Part shown: positions 191 through 44,936 of the stretch, piece after piece
How the letters are laid out: every line of letters starts with the position of its first letter
Numbering within the stretch: position 1 is the first letter of the stretch
Source: Candidatus Kaiserbacteria bacterium
GTDB taxonomy: Bacteria > Patescibacteriota > Minisyncoccia > Phycocordibacterales > Phycocordibacteraceae
Assembly: GCA_016182485.1 (NCBI GenBank)
Contig: JACPGH010000007.1
Location: 27,656-91,655, forward strand
Direction of reading: 5' to 3'
DNA: 64,000 bases
Notes under the pieces: model-generated
Seen by the model: the letters and a program-made list of their open reading frames with translations, nothing else
Databases searched by the model: none
What the model was told of the DNA's origin: nothing
Made by a program: the position numbers and the translations under genes

Positions 191-213
191 AAAGGACCAG
201 GCTAGGCGATCGC

Positions 214-285
214 ACTCTGGAACGCTGGAGGCTGGATTCTGGATGCTGGTTACCCAGTCTCTAGGAACCAGCTTCTAGCCTCCAA
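214..285 (+). repeat. 72-nt hairpin-forming repeat, copy 1 (ggaggctgg...ccagcttctagcctcc), located where the P3 hairpin of rnpB would be
   Basis: Near-identical direct repeat of 533-605. Contains an internal imperfect inverted repeat. Confidence 0.7.
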
Positions 286-532
286 GGTGAGGAAAGTCCG
301 AACACGGGCCGCCCTGAAAGGGCGCGCAGCAAGTAGCGGGTAACTCCCGCACACCGCGAGGTGAGAGGTGCGAACAGAGACGCTCATGAGCGAAAGCGAA
401 TGAGCGCCCTGCGAAGCTTGATGCGAAGCAGGGCGACTTGGAGTGTATAGTCCTTCTTCGCCAAGGCTACGAAGGACATTTGTCGAAGACTCCAAATGAA
501 ACGGCAAAATCCTTACTTCCGTGCAAGGCCGT

Positions 533-605
533 ACTCTGGAGCGCTGGAGGCTGGACTCTGGATGCTGGTTTACCCAGCCTCTAGAAACCAGCTTCTAGCC
601 TCCAG
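533..605 (+). repeat. 72-nt hairpin-forming repeat, copy 2, in the P15-P17 region of rnpB
   Basis: ~90% identical to 214-285 by direct inspection. Confidence 0.7.
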
Positions 606-855
606 TTTGTGCCGCTAGATCCCGAGCGCAAGCGAGGGACCAGATAAATGATCGCCGCCGATTTTGCCTGCCGCAGGCAGCTGCAGATTCGACAAGCTCA
701 CTGTGGCGAGCTTTGTCGAGCCACAAATCGAGCGTCCCGAGCAAAGTCGAGGGACTGCGACCCTTCGACAAGCTCAGGGTACTCGATTCTGCAACCACCT
801 TCGGTGGGCAGAATCGGTACAGAATTCGGCTTATCGGCCTGGTCCATAAAACTGC

Positions 856-886
856 GAAAACCCGCCTCCCGGCGGGTTTTCGCTTC
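856..886 (+). terminator. Intrinsic terminator of rnpB (aaaacccgcc-tccc-ggcgggtttt); symmetric, so potentially bidirectional
   Basis: Perfect 10-bp GC-rich stem with a 4-nt loop followed by UUUUCG. Confidence 0.6.
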
Positions 887-905: not shown

Positions 906-975
906 ATTCTGTGAAGGTCTGACCTTCACAAGCTAAGCGTTCCCTAAATGTGAATGTGAAGGTCAGACCTTCACA
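906..975. repeat. Pair of REP-like 21-bp palindromes (TGTGAAGGTCTGACCTTCACA and its CAG-centred inverse), left flank of the REPtron
   Basis: Perfect inverted repeats tgaaggtc/gaccttca at 908-930 and 954-975. The same palindrome recurs at 1718-1742, 1763-1790 and 18548-18570. Confidence 0.8.
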
Positions 976-984
976 CTACCAGGA

Positions 985-1695
985 CTACCAGGGTTCGAGC
1001 ATGATGGATTTGAAGTCCTCGCCTCGCGAAGCCATGTGCGCCTCGAGCAGTTCCCTCGCCTCTCCTTTGAACGAATCTCCGCTTCCGATAACTTCCGCCA
1101 TTAGCCCCTCTGCATCGTCTACGATCGGAATGGGATTCTCGAAAATGAGACCGGGCAGACTTGAGAATGGATAACGGCACGCCCATTCCCATGCGTCGTC
1201 AAAATTGACAAGCGCCGCTCGCAGCCCGCCTGGATACATCTCGAGTACATTCTTCACGAGGATATAGAACGCGAGGTAATTCAGATGCTCGCCCCTCTCG
1301 ACGACCCTTCCATGATAAGCACCCTGAAATATGCTTCCTTTCTCCTCATATTTCAGGTTGAAACACATGGACATACTTCCGCCTATTCTTTGCATAAATT
1401 TCGCCGTCCCGCCCTTCCGGATTTCTTGCAGCAACAGATGGAAATGGTTCGACAAGAGCGTCCAGGCAAGTATCCGGACCAGCGGCTCGCGTTCGGGCCA
1501 ATGCGATGGGCGTTCGAAAGCGGGAAGTTTGGCCGCTTCTCGATGCCAGTTCGGATCAGTGTAAGTATCGTTGAGCAGCAGAAGCGATCTGGTCGAGCGC
1601 CACCGATCTTCATCGTCGCGTACGATGTCCATTTCGCGAACCCCGCGCTTAGTGACGTGGACAATAGAATCCACTGAGTAGGGTTCAAGCCTCAT
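985..1695 (-). CDS. REP-associated tyrosine transposase (RAYT), an IS200/IS605-like Y1 HUH transposase
   Basis: HUH motif (SNHFHLLLQ) and a downstream YILVKNV segment resembling the RAYT Y-x-x-NPV catalytic region. Flanked on both sides by inverted pairs of the REP palindrome (REPtron layout). The true start may be an internal Met. Confidence 0.55.
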   Translation of the reverse strand: MRLEPYSVDSIVHVTKRGVREMDIVRDDEDRWRSTRSLLLLNDTYTDPNWHREAAKLPAFERPSHWPEREPLVRILAWTLLSNHFHLLLQEIRKGGTAKFMQRIGGSMSMCFNLKYEEKGSIFQGAYHGRVVERGEHLNYLAFYILVKNVLEMYPGGLRAALVNFDDAWEWACRYPFSSLPGLIFENPIPIVDDAEGLMAEVIGSGDSFKGEARELLEAHMASRGEDFKSIMLEPW

Positions 1696-1715
1696 GAAAT
1701 AAGAATACCTCGCGC

Positions 1716-1792
1716 CCCTGTGAAGGTCAGACCTTCACAGGATAGCTGTGGATTACGACAGCTTGTGAAGGTCTGACCTTCACAAGCTGTTC
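1716..1792. repeat. Pair of REP-like palindromes, right flank of the REPtron (extended 14-bp arms acagcttgtgaagg/ccttcacaagctgt)
   Basis: Copies at 1718-1742 (cag centre) and 1763-1790 (ctg centre). Mirror-symmetric to the left-flank pair. Confidence 0.8.
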
Positions 1793-1879
1793 TTCGATGG
1801 AGGGTGGCCAGATAAACAGGCATGGACTTTGCTATGTAAAGCGAACCGGCGCACGCGAAGCGTGCGCCGGATAACTGGC

Positions 1880-2494
1880 CTACCCTATTAGGGGTCGCAC
1901 CAGGAGGAATCGACAGGTCGGAAGCCACAGACATTCATCCTCTTCTCGCAGGCCGATTACCCGCTTCCCCGACAGCTCCTGATACAGGACTACCGGATTG
2001 GGACAGAAGGATGCGATCGAGAAGCGACGCTGCCGGCCTGGATAGAGCGCGGCATGCGCGAGCATGTGCTCGATTCCCGCGAACGACCACCAGGTTGGGA
2101 CCAGCTGTCTGATCTCCTCTCTCGCGCGTGCCGACGTGACCTCCCTATCGAACCGGACATATTGCGCCAAGAACCATTTGGTATTGACGGTGGCCGGCTT
2201 CTGGACGAGGGCGCGGAATCTCTCCCCGACCTGCTTCTCGACGTCGAAGTCACCGAGGGCTAGCATCTCCTCGATCGACAGCGAGTAATCCACGACGAGA
2301 CGGAAGAGGCTCGACTCCAGACCGAGTGCCTGTCGAAAGCTCTTGAGGTCGGGCAGTGTGCGTTTCCTAGCCGCCTGAGCAAGAGCTGCCAGATGGCCGC
2401 CGTGAATCGTGTCGATCTCCTCTTCCGTGAGCCCCTGCTGATCGAGAATGAGAAGCGTCTGCCTCGCCCTGCCGAAGATGCCATCGGTGCCCAT
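1880..2494 (-). CDS. Hypothetical protein (204 aa), no recognisable family
   Basis: Long ORF with coding-like composition between the REPtron and the RNR gene. No motif recognised. Confidence 0.4.
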   Translation of the reverse strand: MGTDGIFGRARQTLLILDQQGLTEEEIDTIHGGHLAALAQAARKRTLPDLKSFRQALGLESSLFRLVVDYSLSIEEMLALGDFDVEKQVGERFRALVQKPATVNTKWFLAQYVRFDREVTSARAREEIRQLVPTWWSFAGIEHMLAHAALYPGRQRRFSIASFCPNPVVLYQELSGKRVIGLREEDECLWLPTCRFLLVRPLIG

Positions 2495-4996: not shown

Positions 4997-5081
4997 GGGT
5001 TGATAATCAGTGATTGGTAATGACTCCCTCGACTTAGGTTTAGTGTACTCCTCATGTGATTTCGATACCTGTGGATATTTT

Positions 5082-8437: not shown

Positions 8438-9595
8438 TTAACGTATCGCGCCCGCGACCGCTTTGACCACGCGCGGGTCGAGCATGTCGGGAATGATCTT
8501 GTCCGCCGCGGGCCGGGCGACAAGCGCCGCGAGCGCGCGAGCGGCGCGCAGCTTCGCGGCTTCAGTTATCTGCCGCACGCCGCGGTCGAGCGCGCCGCGG
8601 AAGACCCCCGGGAATACGAGCGAGTTGTTGATCTGGTTGGGGAAGTCGCTCCGGCCGGTCGCGACGACGACGGCGCCGGCTTTCTTCGCCACGTCCGGGA
8701 ATATTTCCGGCTCCGGATTCGCCATTGCGAAGACGATGGCCCTCGGCGCCATGCTGCGGACATGGCCTGCCGATAGGAGCCCTTTGCCGGAGAGGCCGAT
8801 GAATACGTCGGCGCCGACCATCGCTTCATCGAGCCCGCCCTTCACCTTGCGCGGATTCGTGAGCTTGGCGAGCTCGGCTTTATTTTCATTCAAGTTCTCG
8901 CGGCCGGCATAGAGCGTGCCTGTGCGGTCGAGCATAACGATGTCGCGCACTCCCGCCGCAATAAGGAGCTTCGCGGTCCCGGTGCCGGCCGCGCCAGCGC
9001 CGCTTATCACTATCTTCAATTCCTTAAGAGTCTTTTTCACCACCTTCGCGGCATTGGTGAGCCCCGCGAGCACCACGATCGCCGTGCCGTGCTGGTCGTC
9101 GTGCATAACGGGAATGTCGAGCGCTTCGATGAGGCGCTCCTCGATGTCGAAGCACTTGGGCGCCGCGATGTCCTCGAGATTAATGCCGCCGAAAGCCGGC
9201 GCGATCGCCTTCACGACCTGCACTATCTCCTCCGGTTCTTGCGTCGAAAGAACGATCGGCCACGCGTCCACTCCTGCTTTTTCTTTAAATATGAGCGCCT
9301 TCCCTTCCATGACCGGCAGGGCGCCATAGGGGCCGATATTCCCCAGCCCAAGCACGGCCGAGCCGTCGGAGACTACCGCTACGCTGTTTTTCTTGACCGA
9401 TAATTTGCGCGCCTCCTCCGGATGCTCCGCCAGATATCTCGAGGCGACCGCGACGCCCGGCGTATACCACAGCGAGAAATCCTTTTTTTCCTTTAGCTTC
9501 ACGCGCGCCTTGGTCTCCACCCGTGCGCCCTGTTTCTTGAATGCGGTCAATATCTTTTTTGATTTTGTATCCATAGATAGACCGTCAGTATACAT
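8438..9595 (-). CDS. NAD(P)-dependent malic enzyme (small form)
   Basis: YTPGVA motif, Rossmann GAGAAG, and the overall malic-enzyme/MaeB N-domain layout. 385 aa. Confidence 0.8.
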   Translation of the reverse strand: MYTDGLSMDTKSKKILTAFKKQGARVETKARVKLKEKKDFSLWYTPGVAVASRYLAEHPEEARKLSVKKNSVAVVSDGSAVLGLGNIGPYGALPVMEGKALIFKEKAGVDAWPIVLSTQEPEEIVQVVKAIAPAFGGINLEDIAAPKCFDIEERLIEALDIPVMHDDQHGTAIVVLAGLTNAAKVVKKTLKELKIVISGAGAAGTGTAKLLIAAGVRDIVMLDRTGTLYAGRENLNENKAELAKLTNPRKVKGGLDEAMVGADVFIGLSGKGLLSAGHVRSMAPRAIVFAMANPEPEIFPDVAKKAGAVVVATGRSDFPNQINNSLVFPGVFRGALDRGVRQITEAAKLRAARALAALVARPAADKIIPDMLDPRVVKAVAGAIR

Positions 9596-18339: not shown

Positions 18340-21300
18340 TTATTGTGGCGTTGTCGAAGTTTCGGTAGCCGCGGAGAGGGGCTCGATTACTGTCACTAGC
18401 CTCGAAACCGAACCCGTGTTCCCCGCCGCGTCCGTCGCGCTGTAGGTGAGCGTGTATGAGCCGGCTGTTGCGGTATCTGCGGAACCCGAGGTCGCGATTT
18501 TTGCCGTTAGGTCTCCGTCCGTTTCATCTGTAGCGGTCGCCCCCGGGTCTGTGAAGGTCTGACCTTCACTGATCTGCATCGCCGCCTCTCCGTTCAAGGT
18601 CACGATCGGAGGTTGAGAGTCTGAATCCGGACTTATGACTTCCGACTCTGGAGTAGCGCTCGACTCTTGACTCGTGACTTGTGACTCTTGACTTGTTGTA
18701 CCGGCTACTACGCTCCCGTTGCCTACGATCACCGACCGCGTCGCCATGATGCTCCCATTCGGCCCGAGTACGCGATAGGTGATTATGTAGGTCGTCTCGC
18801 TTGAGGTATCAATAGTCCCCGGGCCGACTTCCGACTCCACGCCGTTGATATAAGTCGTTACGGGCGCACCCCCTGCATCGATTCCCGGATCAACGAAGTT
18901 CCCCCCGACCTCGATCAGATAAGGATTATCCCCGAGCACCGTAATCCATTGGGTGCTCGTGTTTGAATTGGAAATTGAAAATTGAGAATTGGAAATTTGT
19001 GACTCTGGCGTGCTTGTCGCCATCTGCCCTTCCGTCTGGATCAAGAAGTAATCGAAGGAGGTGTCTCCCGCCTGCGGGCTCTCGAGCACGAGGCGGAAGG
19101 AGCCGTCCTTCTTCTCCGCGATATACCAGGAGCCGGTCGTCGAGGCGGTGAAGGTGACGAATATCTTGGTCGAGGGCTTCACGTAGGCGTTCTGCACCTC
19201 CGCGACCGTGTTGCCGGCGATTATTTTCACCGTCCCGGCCGAGCTCGTACCGGCGGAATTCGTCGCCGCGACGAACTGGTCGGCCACGAGCGTGCCGAAC
19301 TGCGCGATGCCCTTCGCGATATAGGCGCCAAAGGCGTTAAAGGCGCTCGCGAGCGAGGTCGTCGAGAAGGAGACCGGCGAGCCGGAGGCAGAGGAGACCG
19401 CGCCGCTCTCGAGCGCCGCGAGGCGCGCCTCGAGCGAGGTGAGCCGCACCTCGGCGCGATCGACCTTCTCGGCGAGCGTCTGCACGCCCGCGAGGGTCAG
19501 GGTCGCGAGCTTGTAGAGATCCACGCCGTTGCCGTCTATCGAGAGGATCTCGGGCGCCGTCTCCCGCGCATCCTCGGCAATGAGGCCGAGCCGGAGCGGG
19601 TTGCTCCCGGCCTCTGCCGCGTAGCGATACGTCGCGACCTTGAGCCCGCGAACCTTGCCCAGCACGGCCTCGGTCGAGCTCGCGCTCATATAATTGATGT
19701 CGGTCTTGAGCGCGCGCGTCGAAGTGTTCACGAAGCTCGTCGCGCTCACTTCCTGCGCCGTGAGGCGATTGATGTAGCCCTCGTTCGTCACCGCGAGATT
19801 CGATGTCCACACGGAGGTCGAGGCGACAAAAGAATCCGCCGCTACGTTGCCATATACTGTGAACAAGCCGGCAGCTTGGTGCGGAAACGATCCTGTCACT
19901 TCGATTTCTGAGGGTTCGATTCCCTCTGCCGGCTTTTGCAGGTTTTCCACAATGCTTGCCGGGGTGCTTGACGCGTAAACCCAGTTTGCTATAATAGGTG
20001 CGGTGACAGGCTCGTTTCTCGCAGAAATCGAACCCTCGTAAGAGAACCCGAAGTAGCCGCCCGTAAGGGCGGTTATTTCGTTTTCCAGCGTCCCTACCCT
20101 CCCCGCGAGCCGCGTCGAAGTGGTGCTCAGCTCCTGTATCGCCAGTATCATCGGCGCGGCGAGGCCGTCGTAATTGATGGAGAGCGTGCCGTCGGGCGTG
20201 AGCGAGGTGGGGGCGGAAGTCTGTACGAGATCCGGGAACACCTCTCGCACCTGCTGGGCGATGAGGCCGAATTGCTTCTGGCTCGAGCGCTCCGCCGCCG
20301 GATCCCAGTAGAAAGAAACGGGCCGGAGCGCGTCGATCGCAGACAGCCCGCTCGCTGTCGCGAGCGGGCTTATATCCTGCTTCAGCCGCTCGTCAGACGC
20401 GGAGCAGGCGAGGAGGCCGTTGCCGTTAGACGTGAAGCCGGTGCAGTTCTTGTAGCCGTCGAAGGTGACGTTCGCCGTCTCCCCGCCGACTTCAAGCAGG
20501 GTCGCGGGCGTCGTAGTCCCGAGGCCTATCGCGCTCGCGCTCATGTAGATCGGCTGGACGCCGCTCCCCACGAGGCGCGAGGTGATGATGAGATTGCCGG
20601 TTGAGGCGTCGATGCCGAATTCGCCGATGTAGTTGGGGTCGGAGCCGTTGTAGATGGTCATGGCGGAAGCGCTCCCCGCGGTCGTCACGATCGAGAAGCG
20701 CTCGCTTTGTCCGCCGGGGCTTGCCGTCCCAATCCCGACATCACCGGAGTCGTCGATCACGAACGGCGTCGGGTCGCCTGCCTGGTCGTTCACGGCGAAG
20801 GAGAGCGCGGCGCTCGTATTCTCGACCGCGAACTTCGCGAACGGCGTGCTCGAGGCGATGCCGACCCGCTCGTTCGTGGCGACATAGAGCGAGGAAGTGG
20901 CGGTGAGGGTCGTACCGGTCCCCGCATAGTATGGGAACTGCCCGGCCGTGCCGGAACCGACCGTCCCTGTCCCGCTCCCGCCTCCCACGCAGACTCCGTT
21001 AATCGCAAAACATCCTGTTCGTATATCAATGCCGGAGCCGAACGTGGACGTGGCGGTCGCCGAAATGTTAATCGTATTGGCTCCCGTATCTCCAAGCGAG
21101 AGCAGCGTCCCCGGACTCGTCGTCCCGATGCCGACGTTGCCTTCTATTATCATCCCGTTAGTGGGAGCCGCCGCACCGTAATTTGTTCCCACGGAAACCC
21201 CTCCAGCAATACTCAATTTACTTCCCGGAGTAGTGGTGCCAATACCAACCCTCTGGTTGTACCCTCCAGAGACACCGCCAATAAAGAACGGCGTGTAGCT

Positions 21301-24300
21301 CGTGGAGAAATCTCTGACAGCAGCCGTGTTTTGCTCAATAGAAAAGAAATCAGTCGTATTTCCTACATGGAGCCGCCAGATACCTTCAGAAGTTGCATAA
21401 TTCTTGTTGTCCATTACGAAGTAATTGTCTCCGCCGGTTGTGGTTTGAAGAATGCTTAATGGCGTTGTCGTCCCTATGCCGACGTTGCCAGTGCTGTTTA
21501 TCACCATTTGTGTAGCATTGCCGCCTGTTCGGAAAGACATGCCTCTCGATAGCCCGTTGGGACTGTAGAAAACCCCCCCATCAGCTACGTTATTCGGGCT
21601 TCCAAACAACAAAGCTTGCTCATTAGCATTTGGAGCAAGAAGAGATAGGTAATTTGAGCCACTGTTTTCAACCGTCAGGACTGTCCCCGCAAGAGGGGTA
21701 ATCCCCGAAAATCCTCCTGTTACATGCAATTTACTCTGCGGACTCGTCGTCCCGATCCCGACGTTGCCATTCTTTATAATAGTCATGTAGTTCGAGATGG
21801 TAGAACCATCCCAGACGCCAAAGTCGAGTGCCATATTGCTGCCGCCGGGCGCCCGAGTTTGGATACGAGCGAAGTCATACCCTCCGGTGGCCGTATCGCT
21901 AAAGAGGAGCCCGATAGCATCACCGGTTTGTCCTCCAAAACCGCTCGTACCAATTTTGGCTACGCTTGTCAGGCTTCCTGCGACTCGTGTACCGGAAACA
22001 GTTAATGTATTTGTAGGCGTCGTCGTCCCGATGCCGACATTTCCGGTGCTTGCTTGAACGGTTAACTTAGGATTGCCACTGATAGACAATTGCACATCTC
22101 TGTTTGAACTTAACATCGCATATGTAGAATTGTCCGTGGAGAGATAATGGCTTTCATCACCAAAGAAAATATTCCCGGCTACTGAAAGTTTTCCTCCAGG
22201 TGCCGCCGCCCCAATCCCCACATTCCCATTCGCCAGCACGGTCATGAGGGTGGAAGTCGACGTGCCAGCAGTCGTAGAGGCGATAGTGAACAGCGGCGTG
22301 TTTACAGCGGTTCCCGCAGCGTTCGAAATCGAGAGGATTGAATACGGCGAGGTCGTCCCGATGCCCACGTTGCCGCCGCTTGTGATGCGCATTTTTTCAG
22401 AGGCATTGGTAGTAAACCCAAGATAGCTACTTCCAAAAATGCCGTAGCCAGTGAGGTTTGAAATATTTACGGCTGGAGTCTCTGCGGTACTTTGAGCTTG
22501 TTCATCAAACGAAGCCCGGCCGAAGGCGTCAATCTTAAACCATTCCTGGGCAGTCGTCAGGTCGGTACCATTTATCAAAACCGCGCCATTACCGGTAGTG
22601 CCGCGTAAAATTAGGCGAGTGTTGTTGGTCGTGGTGTTCGCTATTTCCAAATGACCGACCGGACTCGTCGTCCCGATGCCGACGTTGCCGGCAGTCGTGA
22701 TTGTTAATTTTGCGCCATCAGAAGGAACGGCGTTATTTGTCGTTATGTAGAATTTATTTTCAGAATCATCCCCGAGTCCCATTGCCCAATTCGTCGTTCC
22801 ATTTGTCTGGAATTCTAGCTCATTGTTATTGGTTACAGCTCCACGATTCAATCTCAAATAATTGTGGCTGCCGGAATCAAACCTTGAAACAAGATTCGAG
22901 CTTTTATAGACATCCAATAATACACCCGGCGTCGTTGTCCCAATCCCGACGTTGCCAGTCTGCACTATCAAAGCTGCGTGACTTGCATCAGCCATGTTTA
23001 TGTGAAGACCTCGCTGTATGCCTGCGTTTGATTGCGACCCTCCGGTTATTCTTAGACCGGTATTTATTCCGTTTGTCCCTGAGCCTGTCGTAGCGCCGGT
23101 CGTAATATCTATGCCGTAAGATTCCTGCGCATTGCCGCCGCTGTGATCTTTTCTCATGGTTGGGGTGGTAATTTGTACGCCCCTCCATGTAAAGCCGCCC
23201 GTATTCCCTAACCAATTCCCGGAGGTAATCTCGATTCCCCGAACTGTCGCGACATCGCCGCCTTGATCAAATTGGCCGGGGCTGCCTGTCTCGATCCTAG
23301 CTCCCGTGAGGGTAGCTGGCGCATTATTCATGGTGAAGGTTGGCATCTTGAGAACCAACCCTCTCTGCGTAACTCCCGAGGCATTGGTTACATTGGTATT
23401 CGCATCGAGAGTCGCAAGGTCAAAAGTAGAGCTTATAGCCGAAGGCTGTGCAACCGCCAATCTGCTTTCGGGACTCGTCGTCCCAATCCCAACATTCCCA
23501 TTCCCGTCGATCACGAAGCGGTCGTCGGTGCCTAAGGCGGATGACGACGCGATTTTGAATTTGCCTCCGTCGGAGTAATCCATGCCCATTGTCCACTTGT
23601 ACGTCGGCCCCGCGAGCGCTGATAATTCGATTGCGACGTCGTTCGCCGGCTGATAAAGAGTCAGGACTTGATTAGCGCTCGTCGTCGCAATGCTCAATTT
23701 TCCGTCACCGCTGCCAGTACCCTGCGCGGTTATGAATGGAATCGTTGCACCCACATATAGTTTAAAAACATCATTCCCTCCGCTAAGAGCCGTGTTATCC
23801 CAATCGTCGGAATTGCCTAAGTAGACAACTCCGTTCCCTCCGGTGCTTTTTGAAGAGCCTACTATGGCAATCCCAGCTGCTGAAGAGCTGCCCCACGCCC
23901 TTTCGAACAGCGCATTAAGCCAGCTGTCTGGGGTATCGGTAATACCCGCGCTTTGGGCTGTGTCGCGGACATGCAAATCCGCCCAAGGACTCGTCGTCCC
24001 GATGCCGACGTTGCCGCCGTTTGGATTTATCAACGCGCTGCGGTTATTAGCGGAATGAGCTTGCAGAGTCAAATTCCCGGTAGAGGTGTTATACAATTCG
24101 AGGTATCCATAGATAGAAGTGTTATCAAGACCTGAGCGAATTTGCTGAGAGTACGGCTGGAATATATCTCCGGCTACATGCAAGGTTGCGAGAGGACTTA
24201 CTGTTCCAATCCCAACATTGGAAGTTGTTGCCGATACAGTAAGGACATTTGTGCCAACTTGTAATGTAGCTCCGGGATTGGTAGTCCCGATGCCGACGTT

Positions 24301-27300
24301 GCCGCCGTTTGTCTGAAGAGAGAGCGGGTAGTTGACCGACTGGTCTGTGCTGTCATGTACTTGAATCCATGCAGACCACGGAGAAGTATTCAACGCACCA
24401 AAATCCATCGCAATATTATCTGTGCCGCTGAAACGTACCCGTCCGGTAGCAGTCGTCCCCGAATTAGCCGGGACACCCGCGGCTCCATTCACCTGGAGCG
24501 AAAGGGCGGGATTTGAAACGCCAATACCAACGCTTCCCCCCGCATCTATGGTAAAGGGCGTGGCGTCCGGCGACTCTGTGTCCTCCACAACGAATGAGGG
24601 ACCACTCCCTGCATTCGTTACCGAAAGCACTCCCCACGGACTCGTCGTCCCGATGCCGACGTTGCCGGAAGTGTCTATCGTCAAAGATTCTACACCGTTG
24701 GAATAGAGCGAAAGTTTTTGAGCCTTGCCATTGACATCCCCCATCTGCAAAGTGCTGCCCGATTGTGAGGCAATAATTATATTGCCCGGAGCCACCGAGA
24801 GAACATAATTGGAGGTCGCGTAGAATCCAGGAGCCGTAAGGTATCCGTTATAATCCCATCTGGCTAATTCTGATTGTGCGCTATTTTCGATTCTTATGAT
24901 TGGTCGGTTTGCTGCGTCATCTATAGTTCTAAAAACCGCGACATAGTCATTTGGAGACGCGCTCGTCGAACCGGCCACGACCAATTTCGACGTTGGATTC
25001 GTTACACCAATCCCCACGTTCCCTCCGAGGAACACCGCCGCCGGGCCAGTCGATTTCTGCTCGATAGCGAGCGTCGGATACGCCGAGGTGCTTGAGGCAG
25101 AGAGCTGGCCCCAAGGGGTGGTGGAACCGATCCCGAATTTCCCATTCGAAAGGTCAAGGGTCATTCGGGTTGTGGGCGTAAAAGCAGAATTCATCGTTAA
25201 GCCCGTATCCCCCGTAAACAAAAGTTCTCCGTTTAGCTCTCGGAGCATAGAAGCCGCCGTTCCGCGGGCAACCATAGCGGCTGCGACCTCGTCTACGTCG
25301 AAACCTAGGAATACATTTCCAGAATTGACGACGGACATTGAAATAGACCCGGGACCTGCGGCATAACCAGAATTCACAATAAATTGCGAATTAAGCCCTT
25401 GGCCCCCTCCATAATTCTGGATATTTAACAAAGCATCTGGACTCGTCGTCCCGATCCCGACGTTGCCGCCTTCCTGAATGTACATCCGCGCAGACAATGT
25501 TGCTGCACTCCCAACCGCCCCGCTTGGCGCGGTGTAAAATCCAATATCTCCAGCTCTGTTGTTATCATTAATCCCGATTGCTGCGCCACCGGCGGCTTCT
25601 ATATATTTCCAACCACTCGAATAGTAAAGGTTGCCCGCTACATTGGCTCCGGCGTTCCCACCAAAGGTCATGTCATCCCCTGATGTGGCAATATGAAGAA
25701 GATTTAGCGGACTCGTCGTCCCGATGCCGACGTTGCCAGTGCTATCAGCAATGAACATTGAATCATCTGGAGCGTTGTAGCCGATCGAAAACTTCCTTCC
25801 ACTCGTTCCTGCATCTGTCCCAAGAATTATTCTTCCAGCGTTATTACCAAAGTAAACTATCTTACCAGCTGGAGAAGATGCTGAGTCATCCAAGCGTATA
25901 TATGGAGTCGAACCAACTGCATGAATAATCTGTACAGGATTGGCGACTCCTATACCGAGTTTCCCATTAGTCCCCCCTGCAGTTGATGCTCCGACGAAAA
26001 GATCGCCTCCAATAGAGGTGAGTGCAGCCGGACTCGTCGTCCCAATGCCGACGTTGCCTGAGCCGTTTGCGTAGAGGGTGCTGGCGATCGCGACTTGAGT
26101 AGCCGAAACACTAATGGCATTATCGAGACCTGCTGCAGCAAATGCCAGAAGAGTTTTATCGTCTTTACCATCACGTATGTAGAAATTGTTACTGGTCAAG
26201 CCTCCAATGAAGCCAACCTTCCACAAAGCAGCTCCGTTCGAGTCTAATGTAAGCCCTCCATCATGGCTATTATTTGGTCTATTAAAAAGAATAGAAGCAG
26301 GGCCACCGCTAATGGAGAGTAACGCTCCCGGACTCGTCGTCCCGATGCCGACGTTGCCGTTCGCTTGCAATGTCATCACTGTAACATCCCCTGTTTTATC
26401 AAAACTGCCGCTGCTTTTGAGATTAATATCGAGGCGTGAATACGGATTGGTATCACCCACTTGGTATCGTCCGAGCGCAAATTCCGCAATATTGGGATAT
26501 GAGACACCGTCATTTACACCTCTATAGAGCTGCAGGATTCCTGCTGCTCCCACTGAAGAAGGAGCAACAGAGCCCACCACCTCAAGAGGCACCGCTGGAT
26601 TTATCGTTGGAGTTCCGATACTCACTTCGGTACCGCTTATAATCATCGCATCCGAAAATACATTTGCCCCCGTTGTGGTCTGAAACACTAACAAGGAGCA
26701 ATCATTTCCATAACAGTTACCCCCGAAAGTACCTAAAATTCTTCCAACCGACGGTGTTGGAGTCACACCTCCCGTAGGCGCAAGAAACCTGATACCCGCA
26801 CCCGGCCCATAATTTGTACCCGGTAAATCGTTCACCACCGCTATCTCGGCGCTTATATTTCCACTCCGTGTAGAAGTAGTATCGGACCGAGAAAATTCCG
26901 CAAGAAAATTCGGTATAGCTTTCCCAATCCCCACATTCCCCGCGTTCGTAATAGTAAGCGCCGCGGGGGTTGATGTCCCATACGCATCCGTCGATGTCCC
27001 GACGTACAGGTTCCCGCCCATTGAGGAAAAGAGCCAGTGTTTCAAGTTGGCACCCGCCGAAGAATCAGAGAGCGCAAAAGATGGTCGAGTGCCCGCGGCT
27101 TGCAGGAGCCAGTTCGGCGTCGTAGTCCCGATGCCGACGTTGCCGGAGTCATTGACGACCATCAGGACATTATTCGTTGCGTCTCCATCTGTTTGATGAT
27201 GGCCGATGACGAAGGCCTGGCCAGTGTTGTCATTATCAGCGTCAAGGTTGACCCGGAAACTGCCTGTGCTTGAAATCATTCCCCAACCATCAGGTCCGGT

Positions 27301-30300
27301 TGCAGGAACATATCCATCCTGTGTCGTGCCGCCGTAGCCAAAACGGAAGCTCGAAGATACTATCATCTGCGATCCAGTAAGAGATAGTCCCGATGCTCCT
27401 AACCCGAAAAATTCTACGGTGCTGTTTGGTTGAAACCGCATTCGTTCCGCAAGCGAACTGGTATTGGTATCCACCCCATAAAATACCAAAGACGTACCCA
27501 ATCCTCCCGGACTCCATGAGCCGTTTCCAGCTGCTTCCGCGATAATTCGCGCCCCGGTTTGATACGCCGAGCCGTCATATCCCATGAAATCTATCTGGCC
27601 CAATGTATCACTTGAACAATCCACTCCGCATGTTGCAGAGGGAGCACTTGCCGTCCCGCGGGCATGGATTAGTTGAAGCGCCGGACCTGCATCACTAGTA
27701 AGAAATTGACGAATCGTCGAGGTAGCACTCGAGTTACTGACAATGTCAAAGAGTGTACTTGGCCCCGCCGTCCCAATTCCTACCCTGCCATTCGCGAGCA
27801 CGGTCATCAAAGTCGAGGTCGAGGTGCCACCCGTCGTCGAGGCGATGGTGAAGAGCGGAGTATTCGCCGTCGTACCGGCTGAATTTGAAATCGAGAGGAG
27901 TGAATACGGAGAAGTAGTACCGATGCCTACTTTTCCGAGATCATTGATAGTCATCCTCTGAACAAGCGTATTGGTGGAATCTGCTCCGGTATTTACATAA
28001 AACTGCAATTCGGGGGAATTGTGCGACTCACCGCTTGATCCCACTATTTTAGCTTGGTTGGCAACGCCATTTCGCATATTGAACTGAAGTTCAGGAGCGC
28101 CCTGATTACTGTCGCCAGTAATGCGAATGGCTGTGACCCCTGAAGAGCTGTAAACTTCAAGTTCTTCTGCAGGAACTGTAGCAGTATTTAACCCACCTCC
28201 TACCCCCAATAAGCCGCCCGTGGTCAGAACCATCTTGCCGTTTGTACTTACTGCAGTCGAATCTTTGAAGAACCCGAGATGTCCGCTGTCTCCTGCGGAT
28301 ATATACCAGTCATCCCCCCCAACAGCCGCATTTGATGTTGAAAGATAGCCAGTTGTCGATATATTAGCTGCCGTAAGTGTTCCAGTAGCAGTGATATTGG
28401 CAGCTGTTATGTTTCCGGAGAAAAGGCCATTTCCGTGTACCGAGAATAGGCTTGCCGGACTCGTCGTCCCTATGCCGACGTTCCCGCCCAAGAACACCGC
28501 TGCAGGACCGGTCGACTTCTGCTCGATGGCGAGGGTTGGATATGCGGAGGTCGAGGAGGCAGAGAGCTGGCCCCAAGGGGTGGTGGAACCGATCCCGACA
28601 AGACCAGCGGCTGTGATGCGCATAAGCTCATATGCTCCTACAAAAGTGATAGGATCGGCGTTCGACAAAAGCCTATAGGCACTTCCTGTCCAGTTGAGAT
28701 TGTGATTTACATCATAGCCAATGTAGCCGCTTGTGGTAGTGAAATTCCCTCCAGAAACGACACCCGTTGAATTCACGGTCAATCTTGGGGTCCCTTCGGT
28801 AGCTACAACGAGAGCATTAGTGTTTGATCCTTGAGCTACATTGACATACATCCCGTGCGAGCCATTCGTAGTATTGGAGTTATAGAAGTTGGCTACATAA
28901 TTGCCTGGCTCACTTTTTGTAACATCGAGTGTGTAACCCGGCGCAGCCGTCCCGATTCCCACATTCCCATTCGCGAGAACGGTCATGAGGGTCGAAGTCG
29001 AGTTCCCTGCCGTAGTCGAAGCGATCGTGAACAGCGGTGTGTTCACCGTGGTGCCTGCCGAATTTGAAATCGAGAGGAGTGAATACGGAGAAGTAGTACC
29101 GATGCCGACGTTGCCTTCCACTATTAATCCATTTGTCGGCGCTACTGTCGTGTCATACGAAGCGCCGATTGTTGCTCCACCCGACACGCTCAGCTTAGAC
29201 CCTGGCGCCGTTTCCCCGATACCAAGGTTTCCGCCTGCAGTAAGTCTCATTTTTTCAGAATCATTGGTTACAAAAGCGAAGGGATGATTAGTGTATGTTC
29301 CTATGAAGGCGCCTGGGGTTCCAAGCTTGCCGGTGCCCACGCCTTCTCCCTGCCAGTAAGAGGTTACACCGCCCCCCGCAACGTCAACTTGAAATTGAGC
29401 ATACGATTTATCTGAGGTAGACAGGTTCCTAACTCTAACTGTCGGAAAAATCGTGCCATTGTCGCTTGTTGAATTTTTTACGACATCAAGCAATACACCC
29501 GGCGTCGTCGTCCCGATGCCGACGTTTCCAGTGCTTGAAATCCTGACCCGTTCTGCTACTGAAAGATTAGCCGGAGTTGTCCAAAACGATAAACCCGTAT
29601 CACCTTGTTCTGCTTGAAAATTGTCATGAACTGCAACAATTCTAGCGGCGTCATTTGTTACAACATTATTACCAACATCAACTTGGCGGAATCCAATATA
29701 TCCTCCCTGTTCGCTATATCCATTGGCCAGACGAGACTCAAGAATCATTATAGGCGCGTATGTCTGGGACGGAACCGTGGTCGGAACAATATCGAGTCGA
29801 GCTGACGGCGTCGTCGTCCCGATACCGATGTTGCCGGTGTTAAATATTGCGGCAGGATTTGTGCCATCGCCTACAACGTAAAGACGCGCGGGAATAGTGC
29901 TTGCAGTAGGCGTGTCCGATCCGATGATTTGAACATTTCCTCTACCAAGATTTAAACTACTTGCGTCGATGCCAGCATTGACAACAGCACTTACTGCTGC
30001 ATTGGTAAACTGCCAATAAGGAAGAGCGCCGCTTGAGGTAACGCGGACAGTATAATTATCTGACGTATTCGTGATAGCAAGTGGGGCAGAACCTGCTGCA
30101 CCGCTGACCACTTGAAGATTATTATTCGGACTCGTCGTCCCGATGCCGACGTTGTTGTTAGAAGAAAGGATCGTAAAGACGGCCGAGGAATCCTCTGCAG
30201 GTGCGTTTCCTTTGCTGATTACGAAGTTATCCGAAGCGCTGTACGGCAAGCCCAATCCCCACTTGACGGCTGAACTCCGCGAAAAATTCACAAAGGCACT

Positions 30301-33300
30301 CTGGCTGTCTCCCGTATTGAGGTTGATTCCTATGCTATTAGAATTCGGATTATTAATGGTGAAAATCGAAGTCGGCCCGGGTGTAAAATCAAATCGATCG
30401 CTGCCGCCGATTTGGACAGCCCCGTTTTGCATCACTAAGAGTCCCGCATTGCCGGCCGACAGTCCCCCCGCGAACGTCGAAGTCGCCGTCGTCGAGGTCG
30501 CGGTGAAATACTGTGAGACGGTTTCCCCAACCACCGAAAGTTTGGCATAGGGACTCGTCGTCCCGATACCGACGTTGCCAGAATTTGTAATACGCATTTG
30601 CTCCGTAGCAGAAGCTCCAGTTTCGAAAAGAATATTCCCGTAGGTAGCGCTGGCGCTCGTGTTGGTAATGTGTATGTTGCCGGTACTCGGATTATAAAGA
30701 TCAATGTACGCAATGTTATCAACTCCGAGAATCTTGCTTGTACTCAGCCCTAAATTGCCGGCGAGCGTATTGGAGGAACCGTTAAGCGCCATAACGTTTG
30801 TTGCGCCAACTCTCAGATTTAACACACTGTACCCGGCAGTTTTAAGGTATGATCCACTGTTTTCCGCGCTTATTTCCGTATACCACGTGGGGTCACTTGG
30901 TAAACTTGCTCTGACGTTCGTGCCCGCCACCAATCCACCAGTGAGCGTGGAAGTGCTTGTATTCGTAACGATAAGGTTCGTCAATGTCGACGTTCCCACT
31001 GCGAGCGTGCTTGTCCCCGTTATCGCACCACCAAAAAATCCTGTGCCACTAACATAACTATTGCCATGTACGCTTAACAGAGCCGCAGGACTCGTCGTCC
31101 CGATGCCGACGTTGCCCGTGTCGCTCTTGATGGCGATGTCTGTCCTCTGGATGCTGCCATCATCCGCCGAAATCCAGAAAGCATCGTCAATGATTCGGAG
31201 AATATGTTTCTTGCTGTTCGAGTTGTCTTGGAGGACGATACCCGGATTTGTGCCGCTGCCCGGGCCTATGTGCAGAGAGGTGGTGAGTGCCGTTGCAATG
31301 CCGCTTCCTGGGCTCGCCGTCCCGATGCCGACGTTGCCGGAAGTATCAATTCTCATTCTCTCTGTAGGTGTAAAACTATTGCCAGCTGTTAGCCCGCTGT
31401 TTGTGAAGAACCGAATATTCCCCAAATAATTTTCCACTTGCGAAGCCATCGTACTCCGGGCGACATAACTACTGCCATTCCACGACATTCCTCCGGCAAT
31501 ATTGCCTTGGCTGTCCGCAGTTGAAATGAGAAAGCCGCCACTGTTAGTCCCGTCGGAACCAAACCTTATTTGAGTATTTGAGCTTGCTGTGGCTATGTCC
31601 AGCTTATAGTTTGGCCCCGCCGTCCCGATGCCGACGTTGCCGGTGCTTGTTATTCGCATCCGCTCTGCAATCGTGGAATCGGTCTGCGTTGTCGAAAATT
31701 GCAGATACCCGGCGTTAGGGTTCGATTCCATTCTTCCTGCAATTGTGGCAAAGGCTAATGCACCTGTTGCTCCGCCACCAAAACCGGAGAATCGAAGTTG
31801 AGGACCTTTATCAATTGCTGCAGCATCGCTTGAACGTAAGACTAGGGTGCCAGCAGATTCGGCTGAATTAACCACTCCACTCGCTGCCTCAACCGTTAAT
31901 TTCCCACTTGGACTCGTCGTCCCGATGCCGACGTTGCCGCTCGACAAAGTAGTGCCAGTACCATCGATCCCCGTACCATAAATGAGATTGCCAATATTAA
32001 GAATATTTGATGAGGTGACCGCCGGAGCATCAATGTCGTAGCCTAGGATGATATTCCGCGAACCAGTCGTAAGCGCATCTCCTGCCTGATAGCCCAGGAG
32101 AATATTCCCCCCGCCGTAGGTGATGGCATTCCCCGCATTGTAACCAAGCGCTACGTTCCCTTCGGTATCATTGGAGGGGCCGGTAATCATATTAAGCAGA
32201 GCCTGATAGCCGATGGCGACTTGATTTGAAGAGCTCGTCGCTGTTTGAAGCGCACTCTGTCCCATTGCGATGTTGTAGCTACCCGTCGTATTGCTCAAGA
32301 GGACATTTACACCGATGCCGATGTTTGACGCTCCACTCGTATTCGCTGACATAGCACTTCTGCCGACAGCCGTATTGAAATCGCCCGTCACGATCGCGCC
32401 GCCAATCGCGTTACTACCGACAGCTGTATTATATGCGCCTGTGGAAATATGGTAGCCTGCTTGAAGTCCCAGACCAGTATTTTCGACACCCGTGGTATCG
32501 GCTAAGGCGTATGCTCCCAAAGCGGTAAGGCCATCTGTCGTGACATTGCTATTTAACGCTGATGTGCCTATAGCTACGTTATTGCTTGCAGTAGTAAGGG
32601 AGGCACCCGCCAAATAGCCCAAGACTGAATTATTGTTTCCTGTGGTCAAACTCTTCAAACCATAGCGTCCGATCGCGATATTAGAAGTTCCAGTGGTAAT
32701 ACTAGAAAGAACCAAGTCGCCGCCAATGCCAATATTGTAAGTTCCGGTCAAGGTCGTGTTTCCAGCCGGCGCACCGTTCGTGCCAATCATGAGATTGCCG
32801 GTACCGTAAGAGTCAATCCACCTGTTGTCTCCCATCTTTATTTGACCAACTGCTGTAGTTGTAACCGGAAGACGGAAGTTCCCAGTAATTTCTAATTGCT
32901 CCGCCGGCGTCGTCGTCCCGATGCCGACGTTGCCCGCGCTCGTTACTGTGAGATACGGCGTGACCGTATCACTCGAGGAGGCGATGCGGAAGAGGTCCGA
33001 GGTCTGGCCGCTCCAGCCCTGGACGAAGAGCGTCGAGGTGGCGGAGGTGAGCGAGGCGTCTTGTATATAGAGCGGCTGATTGAATTCAAAGCGCTTGCTC
33101 GACGTGGCGGCGTTCCAGGCCAGCTGAGCGTTCGGCGAACTGCTGCCGCGCGCGAACACTAGGTAGGCGCTCTCTTGATCTGCGGATGTGTTATCAGAAT
33201 TGACAGTGAGCGTCTCTGCCTGCACATTGCCGCCGACTATAGTGCCCACCACGGTGACCGCGCTCACTTCGTTGGCGTAGATTTTATCGAAGCGCACAGA

Positions 33301-37398: not shown

Positions 37399-37839
37399 GT
37401 CGGATAACCGAATTAACTAAATAATAGCTCGTCATTTCGGCAAAAAAATACCTACAAAAAAATTGTGTGGATAATGCGCTGACCTGCGCTTCAGATGAAC
37501 CGCTGAGACGGGGCCATTTTCGATCGAAACGTACGCATTTCTCACCCATTTTTTCAAAATCGTCCCGCAAAACCAGAAATCGGACGCTCCAAAGCGGAAT
37601 AGGCCACGCAAAGCCGGCCCAAGCGCATGTCAAAGCTCACGGAAACCTGTGTAAATTAGCTTTGAGAGCGGCATATTCGCGGTCCAGAGACGTCCATAAT
37701 TGATATTCTGAAATCACCCCAGACTTATGCGCGACATATACCGCTTATTTTTTAGATATTTCGGGCAAGCGACCTGGCTCACAACCGAATAGCAGTGATC
37801 GATGAATGGCGCTATTTACGCATTGTAAAAATAAATTCA

Positions 37840-44636: not shown

Positions 44637-44936
44637 ATCGAGGCTGATACTATTTGCGCTTCTTCGATGCCTTTTTCTTTGCCTTCTTCTTTGCCATGGT
44701 GGTTGCAATTTAGAATAACGGCTGATATGTCGACCCGTCTGCGCATTCGCCAGCTGGCGAAAAATTTTCCGCAAACGTTTCTACTCACTAGTATCGCGCA
44801 TTAAAAATATTTTTTGGGTTAATTTTTGCGCGACCTGTGGATAAACTCGCGTCAAAAAATTTCTCCGCAAAAAAATTTTCTCTAAAAGTTTTGAAAATCT
44901 TCTTGTTTCTCCCGCTTGCCCAGTAGGAAATGCCTT

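What the first reader, a model, noticed from the sequence alone, without database searches (positions are those of the whole stretch)
906..1792. Complete REPtron: RAYT transposase bracketed by mirror-image pairs of a 21-bp palindrome
The layout is [REP(ctg)-REP(cag)]-RAYT-[REP(cag)-REP(ctg)], with a HUH motif and an RAYT-like Y region in the protein. REPtrons have been described mainly in proteobacteria. A complete one in this lineage, with dispersed REP copies (for example 18548), indicates an active or recently active REP system.
Basis: partly seen in the sequence, partly recalled or inferred. Interest (0 to 1): 0.55.

Follow-up and report, generated by a model that had tools for sequence, protein, structure and literature searches.

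The report
RAYT-like gene bracketed by cognate palindromes
A candidate-phylum (Kaiserbacteria) genome carries a single, strongly conserved relative of the REP-associated tyrosine transposases, bracketed by four copies of a perfect 21-bp hairpin-forming palindrome; the same layout recurs across this bacterial group, but the palindromes are few, lack the usual REP tag and often lie inside genes.

The parts
910..930 (.). Distal downstream palindrome (centre T). It is a direct repeat, 25/25 including AGCT, of the copy at 1764-1788.
955..975 (.). Gene-proximal downstream palindrome (centre A). It starts 10 nt beyond the stop codon of the minus-strand gene.
985..1695 (-). RAYT-like HUH/Y1 gene, 236 aa. 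It has NHFH (H84, H86), FQ123-124, catalytic Y144 and the S178-S179 tail motif.
1702..1707 (-). Putative -10-like hexamer TATTCT, between the proximal palindrome and the ATG. It corresponds to the family-wide TGnTAnnnT element 7-12 nt before the ATG. This is an inference; the strict sigma-70 scan found no promoter.
1717..1741 (.). Gene-proximal upstream palindrome. The core is 1719-1739 (centre A on the + strand) and the extended form is CCTGTGAAGGTCAGACCTTCACAGG. Its core begins 44-46 nt before the ATG, as in most homologues.
1747..1755 (-). DnaA-box-like motif TAATCCACA (8/9 match to TTATCCACA) on the gene strand, 5 nt 5' of the proximal upstream palindrome.
1758..1790 (.). Distal upstream palindrome. 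The core is 1764-1784 (centre T) and the arms are extended to 16 nt.
854..883 (-). Terminator-like hairpin just beyond the downstream palindromes. It lies between the cassette and the 3' end of the RNase P RNA and marks the cassette boundary.
1846..1870 (-). Terminator-like hairpin of the upstream 204-aa ORF, just outside the distal upstream palindrome. It marks the other cassette boundary.
18550..18570 (.). Fifth copy (20/21). It is intragenic and in frame in the 6352-aa ORF, where it encodes S-E-G-Q-T-F-T within a PF16403 Ig-like domain. It is conserved in the homologue in L019.

Best explanation
The locus is a REPtron-like unit. It consists of a vertically inherited, single-copy, domesticated HUH single-tyrosine DNA endonuclease of the TnpA-Y1 class-2 (RAYT-like) lineage together with its cognate hairpin repeats. 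The proposed mechanism is inferred by analogy with E. coli TnpA-REP and IS608 TnpA. When DNA is single-stranded, for example at the replication fork, each palindrome folds into a 9-15-bp stem with a C-W-G loop. The protein recognises the invariant apex (A-R-G-T-Y / W / R-A-C-Y-T), plus a clade-specific stem. H84 and H86 hold the metal, and Y144 cleaves and rejoins the strand. This maintains copies of the palindrome and occasionally spreads them. The gene-proximal upstream copy overlaps the gene's own promoter region and lies beside a DnaA-box-like site, so it probably also couples the gene's expression to the protein itself and/or to DnaA. The fold, the catalytic residues, the conserved bracketing, the co-variation, the purifying selection and the low-copy dispersal are shown here. 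Binding, cleavage, mobility and regulation are inferred.

For: Catalytic residues. H84, H86 and Y144 are invariant down to 24% identity. They align with the HVH motif and Y132 of ISDra2 TnpA. All 32 family members match Pfam Y1_Tnp, and distant relatives pass the gathering score at 31-37 bits.

Bracketing. In 62 non-redundant homologous loci, 40 of 56 have a perfect odd palindrome (stem at least 8) upstream and 35 of 58 have one downstream. The background rate is 0.026 per window.

Co-variation. Arm identity tracks protein identity with Mantel r 0.54 and 0 of 2000 permutations reaching it. Positions -3 G and -2 T are invariant in 44 of 44 loci. A 693-kb contig holds two paralogues, at 74% and 51% identity, each with its own palindrome type.

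Selection. dN is 0.12-0.18 while third codon positions are saturated at 43-53% identity, yet the flanking palindromes in L055 and L056 remain identical in 21/21 and 19/21 positions.

Vertical inheritance. L110, whose Y1 protein is 46% identical, keeps the order RNR - Y1 - RNase P - TPR - MurJ. No relative was found in viral contigs.

Dispersal. The exact 19-mer occurs at 47 sites in 26 Patescibacteria genomes, 36 of them away from a Y1 gene. Only 7 hits fall in all other phyla, against about 4 expected by chance by my own calculation.
Against: There is no biochemical evidence. Copy number is low: 1 extra copy in 64 kb here, at most 5 exact copies per related genome, and about 1 apex-type palindrome per 40 kb in flanking DNA. 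The palindromes are perfect and lack the GT[AG]G tag, so both strands form almost the same hairpin; this differs from all tested RAYT substrates. The clade's Tyr motif is YILVKNV and not Y-x3-NP. The NCBIfam RAYT model scores 27 against a cutoff of 80. Many solo copies lie in frame inside housekeeping genes with no net change in domain length and are conserved between deeply diverged genomes; simple insertion does not explain this. A palindrome type is not strictly private to one protein clade: Y1 genes at 42% and 30% identity (L022, L032) use the same GTGAAGGTC core.
Confidence: 0.62

Rival explanations
1. The palindromes are mainly cis-regulatory DNA, acting as an operator or promoter element. 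The Y1 protein has been exapted as a housekeeping, replication-linked DNA-binding or DNA-processing factor that autoregulates through the proximal palindrome together with DnaA. Under this reading the solo copies are further binding sites and not products of transposition.
For: The upstream palindrome sits at a nearly fixed distance from the start codon: its core begins about 36-53 nt before the ATG in most loci. It lies between a TTATCCACA box, found in 23 of 53 loci at -50 to -68 against a background of 0.035, and a TGnTAnnnT -10-like element. The same box-palindrome-(-10) module precedes the downstream gene in about 12 loci. Exact boxes also lie upstream of RNR, the giant ORF and other genes. 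The protein is very strongly conserved at 62-81% identity and a constant 236 aa. Copy number is low.
Against: The catalytic HUH and Tyr residues are invariant, which would not be needed for a pure DNA-binding role. Palindromes also flank the 3' end of the gene, occur in pairs, and occur inside coding regions of unrelated genes. Only 4 of 48 solo copies have the box. The C-terminal domain shows no similarity to the DnaA DNA-binding domain.
Confidence: 0.2
2. The cassette is an autonomous IS200/IS605-type insertion sequence whose left and right ends are the palindromes, together with the adjacent box, and it moves as a unit by peel-and-paste.
For: Hairpins bracket the gene tightly, lying 4-30 nt after the stop codon and about 20 nt before the ATG. 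The [box-spacer-palindrome] module is a direct repeat on both sides in some loci, such as L038. The gene sits in different neighbourhoods in different lineages: RNase P/RNR here, rplJ-rplL in L006-L008, and elsewhere in L005. The cassette here sits between two terminators.
Against: Each contig or genome holds one copy per type and never near-identical duplicates. Synteny is conserved at 46% protein identity. There is no tnpB/iscB partner. The protein is 236 aa, not about 130-150, and structurally much closer to TnpA-REP than to IS608 or ISDra2 TnpA. It lacks the Y-x3-Q motif. No viral contigs carry it.
Confidence: 0.1
3. The palindromes are ordinary hairpins, such as terminators, or chance matches that happen to flank a decayed transposase gene.
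For: Some solo copies lie next to intrinsic terminators at gene 3' ends. Rfam reports only spurious sub-threshold miRNA-hairpin matches on the pairs.
Against: Shuffles give zero expected copies. The stems are not followed by T-runs. The ORF is intact and under purifying selection. The layout recurs in dozens of independent loci with co-varying sequence.
Confidence: 0.02

Closest known systems
E. coli REPtron: TnpA-REP (RAYT, Bertels group 2 / Quentin subclass 2.2) with REP/BIME sequences (PDB 4ER8; PMC3333891, PMC3479197)
   Different: Sequence identity is only 13%, and the NCBIfam equivalog score is 27 against a cutoff of 80. The protein is 236 aa against 165, with extra N-terminal and C-terminal elements. 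E. coli REPs are imperfect, bulged, GTAG-tagged, strand-specific and number in the hundreds. The palindromes here are perfect, untagged, nearly strand-symmetric and number a handful.
Group 3 RAYTs (subclass 2.5; S. maltophilia, Marinomonas) with small perfect-palindrome REPs (PMC8266576)
   Same: The REPs are short, perfect palindromes. Specific loop bases are essential for recognition there, which parallels the invariant apex here. Protein and REP co-evolve.
   Different: Those REPs still carry the 5' GTAG, which helps strand discrimination and cleavage-site choice, and they are abundant. Those proteins are about 150 aa with DH[LF]H, WQ and YI[VI]ANP motifs.
Quentin subclass 2.4 / Bertels group 4 (Cyanobacteria, Bacteroidetes and scattered phyla), with 'double-foot' REPs (PMC6006769)
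   Same: The REPs are symmetric ('double-foot') palindromes. REP copies are inserted in frame inside genes, including the tnpA-REP gene itself; this is seen here in L032 and L022. Flanking 16-mer abundance is low, about 14 in Bertels 2017 (PMC5581495). Both have NH[IFV]H.
   Different: In subclass 2.4 the feet are GT[AG]G...C[TC]AC. Here the foot is variable (TGTG, TTGG, TGTT, TGCA and others) and the conserved part is the apex. The motifs are WQ and YIxNNP there, FQ and YILVKNV here.
Quentin subclass 2.1 / TIRYT (Di Nocera 2013, PMC3733652)
   Same: The length is similar (median 238 aa), as are the NH[YF]H and FQ signatures, the SS tail motif and the low copy number.
   Different: Subclass 2.1 genes have no REP-like hairpins. 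They have GGGGWSAS terminal inverted repeats and a C-terminal HTH resembling Bac_DnaA_C. Here hairpins are the rule, and the C-terminus shows no such similarity.
IS200/IS605 TnpA (IS608, ISDra2)
   Same: Both have the HUH/Y1 catalytic core, and the HUH and Tyr residues align. Both have hairpins at both ends of the gene.

Membership tests
HUH single-tyrosine (TnpA-Y1 / Pfam Y1_Tnp) superfamily | His-hydrophobic-His metal-binding motif | tested here: met
   N83-H84-F85-H86. H84 and H86 are invariant in A1 (32 sequences) and in A2 (29 sequences down to 24% identity). They align to the HVH motif of ISDra2 TnpA.
HUH single-tyrosine (TnpA-Y1 / Pfam Y1_Tnp) superfamily | Single catalytic Tyr on the C-terminal helix of the core | tested here: met
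   Y144 is invariant. It lies on helix 135-151 of the model. It aligns with Y132 of ISDra2 TnpA.
HUH single-tyrosine (TnpA-Y1 / Pfam Y1_Tnp) superfamily | PF01797 match at the gathering score | tested here: inconclusive
   The window protein scores 22.2 bits against a gathering score of 23 (E 1.6e-4). All 32 close homologues match (best E 1.3e-7), and 9 of 10 distant relatives pass at 26-37 bits.
HUH single-tyrosine (TnpA-Y1 / Pfam Y1_Tnp) superfamily | HUH nuclease fold | tested here: met
RAYT / REPtron | Protein recognised by the curated RAYT model (NCBIfam NF047646 equivalog) | tested here: not met
   The score is 27.4 bits against a cutoff of 80. Relatives score 21-50 bits.
RAYT / REPtron | Class-2 Tyr motif Y-x-x-x-N-P (Quentin 2018) | tested here: not met
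   This clade has an invariant F-Y-I-L-V-K-N-V, with N at +5 and no P. The distant relative in L032 has the canonical YIHLNP.
RAYT / REPtron | Structure closer to TnpA-REP than to IS200/IS605 TnpA | tested here: met
RAYT / REPtron | Gene flanked on both sides by its cognate palindromic repeats | tested here: met
   The window has 2 + 2 copies. Family-wide, 40 of 56 loci have one upstream, 35 of 58 downstream and 29 of 52 on both sides, against 0.026 expected.
RAYT / REPtron | REP carries a 5' GT[AG]G tag at the hairpin foot and is strand-asymmetric | tested here: not met
   The palindromes are perfect and the foot is variable. The invariant part is the apex, G-T at positions -3 and -2. Only the central base differs between strands.
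RAYT / REPtron | Cognate repeats dispersed in high copy number, mainly extragenic | tested here: not met
   The 64-kb window has one extra copy at up to 3 mismatches, and it is intragenic. Related genomes hold 1-5 exact 19-mers each, and 16 of 36 solo sites lie inside Pfam-identified genes. The source genome was not in the scanned collection, so a whole-genome count for it is missing.
RAYT / REPtron | Repeats occur away from the gene at all (dispersal above chance) | tested here: met
   There are 36 solo sites in 26 Patescibacteria genomes, against 7 hits in all other phyla. Nine apex-type palindromes lie more than 400 nt from the gene in 363 kb, against about 0.1-0.5 expected.
RAYT / REPtron | Single copy per genome, vertically inherited, each paralogue with its own repeat type | tested here: met
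   There is one cassette per genome. Two diverged paralogues with different palindromes lie on one 693-kb contig. Synteny with L110 holds at 46% identity. dN/dS is far below 1. No species tree was built.
RAYT / REPtron | Protein cleaves and rejoins its single-stranded REP in vitro | not testable with these tools
   This needs purified protein and oligonucleotides.
IS200/IS605 insertion sequence | Several near-identical copies per genome, often with tnpB, and a Y-x3-Q motif | tested here: not met
   No duplicate cassettes were found. The neighbours are a 204-aa ORF without a Pfam match, RNR and RNase P RNA. The motif is YILVKN.
TIRYT / subclass 2.1 | C-terminal HTH resembling Bac_DnaA_C, and flanking TIRs instead of hairpins | tested here: not met
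No member matches a Pfam HTH family. The flanks are hairpin palindromes.

The most novel reading that the evidence does not exclude
Paceibacteria and relatives carry an ancient, near-housekeeping HUH enzyme-hairpin system that is coupled to replication through DnaA boxes. Its palindromes are actively imposed on, or maintained in, the genome, including inside essential genes (TopoI, PheT, LeuRS, Dus, UDG, Pol III delta', a giant surface protein). They are kept at the nucleotide level beyond what the protein sequence requires. The process involved would not be simple insertion; it could be hairpin-templated conversion or 'flip-flop', as the Q/L centre-base switch at one homologous site suggests. 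That would be a RAYT-type system with a mode of sequence propagation and a host function not described for REPs.
Probability: 0.15. Interest if true: 0.8.

Novelty: new variant of a known kind. Interest (0 to 1): 0.55.

Why it matters
RAYT/REP systems have been studied almost only in Proteobacteria and a few other cultured phyla, where REPs are abundant. This locus shows that ultra-small, streamlined candidate-phyla genomes keep a strongly conserved RAYT-like enzyme with co-evolving hairpins at very low copy number. That argues for a host-level or regulatory role and against selfish amplification alone.

The substrate is simple: a perfect palindrome with an invariant 7-nt apex and no tag. The dozens of natural protein/hairpin variants form a ready-made specificity series for testing how Y1 enzymes read hairpins.

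Two further features, if confirmed, would link this enzyme class to replication control and to the shaping of coding sequences. They are the adjacent DnaA-box-like site and the in-frame copies inside essential genes.

Tried and rejected
- **Source-genome count.** Only exact matches in related genomes are available.
- **DnaA-like C-terminus.** The idea that the C-terminal domain is a DnaA-like HTH that would read the TTATCCACA box was rejected (hhalign probability 0.1%; no Pfam HTH in 32 members).
- **Box private to the cassette.** The idea that TTATCCACA belongs only to the cassette was rejected. Exact boxes lie upstream of the giant ORF and a 948-aa ORF, a near-exact one lies upstream of RNR, and boxes are about 4-fold enriched near gene starts in 684 kb of related DNA.
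- **Terminator explanation.** Rejected, because the palindromes have no T-runs; separate terminator-like hairpins lie outside the cassette.
- **Sigma-70 promoter.** The strict consensus scan found nothing in 800-2000. The -10-like element is therefore only an alignment-based inference.
- **Rfam hits.** The hits on the palindrome pairs (mir-980, mir-2188, mir-22) are sub-threshold hairpin artefacts.
- **Viral contigs.** No relatives were found.
- **Direct sequence search of the PDB.** The single protein gave only noise, such as thioredoxins. Profiles gave weak ISDra2 and TnpA-REP hits. Structure comparison was needed.
- **Literature.** Searches for RAYT, REP or IS200 together with CPR/Patescibacteria found nothing relevant. 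One preprint only mentions a K07491 hit in an archaeon.
- **'Mirror image' as a meaningful symmetry.** Rejected, because the orientation of the centre base relative to the gene varies between loci.

Full report
**1. Observation**

The window holds exact copies of the 21-bp odd palindrome TGTGAAGGTC[T/A]GACCTTCACA at 910-930 (centre T), 955-975 (A), 1719-1739 (A) and 1764-1784 (T). A 20/21 copy lies at 18550-18570. No further copy appears even at 3 mismatches, and dinucleotide-preserving shuffles give 0.00 expected.

The two pairs bracket a 236-aa ORF on the minus strand, 985-1695. Two copies extend into longer perfect palindromes, 1717-1741 and 1758-1790. As single strands they fold into 9-15-bp stems with a 3-nt C-W-G loop.

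The two outer copies are direct repeats, 25/25 when 4 flanking bases are included. The 'mirror image' rests on the central base alone.

**2. The protein**

Pfam Y1_Tnp scores 22.2 bits, just under the gathering score of 23. The NCBIfam RAYT equivalog scores 27 against a cutoff of 80.

The protein belongs to a large, tight family. There are 490 hits, the best 120 at 62-81% identity and nearly all exactly 236 aa. They come from Patescibacteria (Kaiserbacteria, Paceibacterota, Minisyncoccia). The window's own protein is annotated 'transposase [Candidatus Kaiserbacteria bacterium]'.

A search without a word index finds 3861 clusters at E no more than 1e-3. Nine of ten distant relatives tested, each about 230 aa, pass the Pfam threshold. 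H84, H86 and Y144 are invariant down to 24% identity. They align with the HVH motif and catalytic Y132 of ISDra2 TnpA.

Motif signatures were compared with the classification of Quentin et al. 2018 (PMC6006769). NHFH, FQ, the SS tail motif and the length resemble subclass 2.1. However, the Tyr motif is YILVKNV and not Y-x3-NP, and the C-terminus is not DnaA-like.

**3. The layout is a family trait**

I gathered homologous loci from three sources: assemblies carrying named homologues, a metagenome scan (66 loci) and a DNA-pattern scan of one genome per species.

In 62 non-redundant loci, 40 of 56 have at least one perfect odd palindrome with a stem of at least 8 within 220 nt upstream, and 35 of 58 have one downstream. 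The background is 0.026 per window. The upstream copy usually begins 36-53 nt before the ATG. The downstream copy begins 4-30 nt after the stop. Extra upstream copies lie near -100 to -110.

The stem changes from clade to clade. Examples are TGTGAAGGTC, GATGAAGGTC, TTGGGAAGGTC, TGTTTAAGTC, TGGGAAAGTT, TGCAGAAGTC and TGGACAAGTC. The apex stays constant: G at -3 and T at -2 in 44 of 44 loci, and A at -5 in 40 of 44. Arm identity tracks protein identity (Mantel r 0.54, 0 of 2000 permutations).

One 693-kb contig carries two paralogues at 74% and 51% identity, each with its own palindrome type. The second type also brackets a small DUF1653 gene elsewhere on that contig. Two loci (L069, L095) carry long inverted dimers of imperfect palindromes, which resemble REPINs.

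**4. Age and selection**

Against homologues at 74-80% identity, dN is 0.12-0.18. Third codon positions are saturated at 43-53% identity. Even so, the non-coding palindromes of L055 and L056 still match the window's almost perfectly.

L110, whose Y1 protein is 46% identical and whose palindrome is different, keeps the gene order RNR - Y1 - RNase P - TPR - MurJ seen here. I saw no duplicated cassette in any genome and no relative on viral contigs. This is the profile of a domesticated, vertically inherited RAYT and not of an insertion sequence.

**5. Dispersal**

The exact 19-mer GTGAAGGTCWGACCTTCAC occurs in 46 stretches of 596 Gb. Seven are in unrelated phyla; about 4 are expected by chance by my own calculation. 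The rest amount to 47 sites in 26 Patescibacteria genomes, with at most 5 per genome. Eleven of these sites flank a Y1 gene and 36 are solo.

The window's own genome was not in that collection, so no count could be made for the source genome.

Solo copies are of two kinds. Some are intergenic, often beside terminators and often with site-specific perfect extensions of the stem. Sixteen lie inside Pfam-identified genes: Dus, UDG, PheT, LeuRS, KsgA, a GT1 glycosyltransferase, TopoI (two tandem copies), Pol III delta' and an Ig-like giant protein. In-frame copies also lie inside the Y1 gene itself in L032 and L022. Intragenic REPs, including within tnpA-REP genes, are known (PMC3733652, PMC6006769).

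**6. The copy at 18550**

This copy is not evidence of recent mobility. It encodes SEGQTFTDPG within a PF16403 domain of the 6352-aa ORF, with no change in domain length. It is present at the homologous site of a protein only 52% identical. There, all 6 third codon positions inside the palindrome are identical, against 27 of 70 outside it.

In a glycosyltransferase pair, the same site reads Q in one genome and L in the other. The central base has flipped while the palindrome is kept. Chance cannot account for the excess of such sites, and simple insertion cannot account for the unchanged lengths. I leave this unexplained.

**7. An unexpected neighbour**

On the gene strand, a DnaA-box-like TTATCCACA lies 4-8 nt 5' of the proximal upstream palindrome. 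With up to 1 mismatch it is present in 23 of 53 loci, with a mode at -61/-62 from the ATG, against a background of 0.035. In the window it is TAATCCACA at 1747-1755.

In 16 of 58 loci a box is also present just after the stop codon. In most of these it sits ahead of the downstream palindrome and a TGnTATnnT element that precedes the next gene. Only 4 of 48 solo palindromes have the box.

The box is not private to the cassette. Exact copies lie 60-80 nt upstream of the giant ORF and of a 948-aa ORF. ATATCCACA lies upstream of the ribonucleotide reductase gene. In 684 kb of related DNA, exact boxes number 22 against about 5 expected, mostly within 300 nt upstream of ORFs.

My reading, which is inference, is that this is a DnaA (or other global regulator) site. 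On that reading the Y1 promoter has the order box, palindrome, -10 element, with a very short leader. The strict sigma-70 scan found nothing here.

**8. Interpretation**

The best explanation (0.62) is a REPtron-like locus of a new, CPR-wide RAYT-like clade. Rivals are a mainly regulatory or housekeeping role for the palindromes and protein (0.2), an autonomous IS200/IS605-type element (0.1), and ordinary hairpins or chance (0.02).

The locus works like a RAYT/REP system in fold, catalytic residues, bracketing, co-evolution, single copy and inheritance. It fails several membership criteria of canonical RAYT/REP: the curated model score, the Y-x3-NP motif, the GT[AG]G tag, strand asymmetry, and high extragenic copy number. 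I therefore rate it a new variant of a known kind.

I found no description of it in the searchable literature. NCBI merely labels the proteins 'transposase'.

Noticed in passing
window 194-849 (+): A bacterial class A RNase P RNA matches the full Rfam model (positions 1-367) but scores only 66 bits against a gathering score of 100, because it is 656 nt long and so carries roughly 290 nt of insertions. It was missed by the gathering-threshold scan.
   Followed up: partly
window 211-284 and 530-604: Two copies, 93-94% identical, of a roughly 75-nt internally self-complementary element (CTGGAGGCTGGA...AGCTTCTAGCCTCCA) lie inside the RNase P RNA region. They look like inserted hairpin elements.
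   Followed up: no
window 37466-37474 (-), 44836-44844 (-), 5070-5078 (-): Exact DnaA-box-like TTATCCACA motifs lie 60-80 nt upstream of the 6352-aa ORF and of the 948-aa ORF. ATATCCACA lies upstream of the class II ribonucleotide reductase gene. In related loci exact boxes are about 4-fold enriched and mostly within 300 nt upstream of ORFs.
   Followed up: partly
window 35731-35751 and 36727-36747: A second perfect palindrome, GTTAGAAATCAGATTTCTAAC, occurs twice inside the 5' part of the giant ORF. The first copy is extended to 31 bp. Similar palindromes (CAGCACTAA...TTAGTGCTG, apex ATCAGAT) occur in L081, L087, L093 and L102, and the one in L081 is next to a TTATCCACA box.
   Followed up: no
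window 18340-37398 (-): A single 6352-aa ORF. Its C-terminus carries PF16403 bacterial surface Ig-like domains.
   Followed up: partly
L051:110-159 and L052:6012-6061: Two tandem palindrome copies 31 bp apart lie in frame inside the Topoisom_bac domain of DNA topoisomerase I. They encode NVKVRPSQGQGGEGLTFTM, and the domain length is essentially unchanged (411 residues against a profile of 409).
   Followed up: partly
L017:2455 vs L012:7378: At homologous positions of a GT1 glycosyltransferase in two genomes, the sequence reads AREGQTFTA in one and AREGLTFTA in the other. The palindrome is kept and its central base is flipped.
   Followed up: no
L032:2713-2731 and L022:6287-6301: Palindrome copies lie in frame inside the Y1 genes themselves. 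L032 (Nomurabacteria, 223 aa, canonical YIHLNP) encodes REGQTFT. In L022 the foot is mutated from TGA to AGA, which keeps the frame open and gives RRSDLH.
   Followed up: partly
L005:9068-9088 and 9325-9345: On the 693-kb contig, two copies of TGGACAAGTCTGACTTGTCCA bracket a 75-aa DUF1653 gene. This is the palindrome type of the distant 51% paralogue, which lies 360 kb away. The copies sit 0.7-0.9 kb upstream of the 74% Y1 gene.
   Followed up: no
L026, L036, L049, L046, L007:5456-5494: Solo palindromes have a conserved 21-bp core that is extended by perfectly complementary, site-specific flanks, with arms up to 23 nt. It looks as if the core sits at the tip of a pre-existing or secondarily perfected hairpin.
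   Followed up: no
window 1880-2494 (-): A 204-aa ORF without any Pfam match lies between the ribonucleotide reductase gene and the cassette. It is absent from the syntenic locus L110.
   Followed up: no
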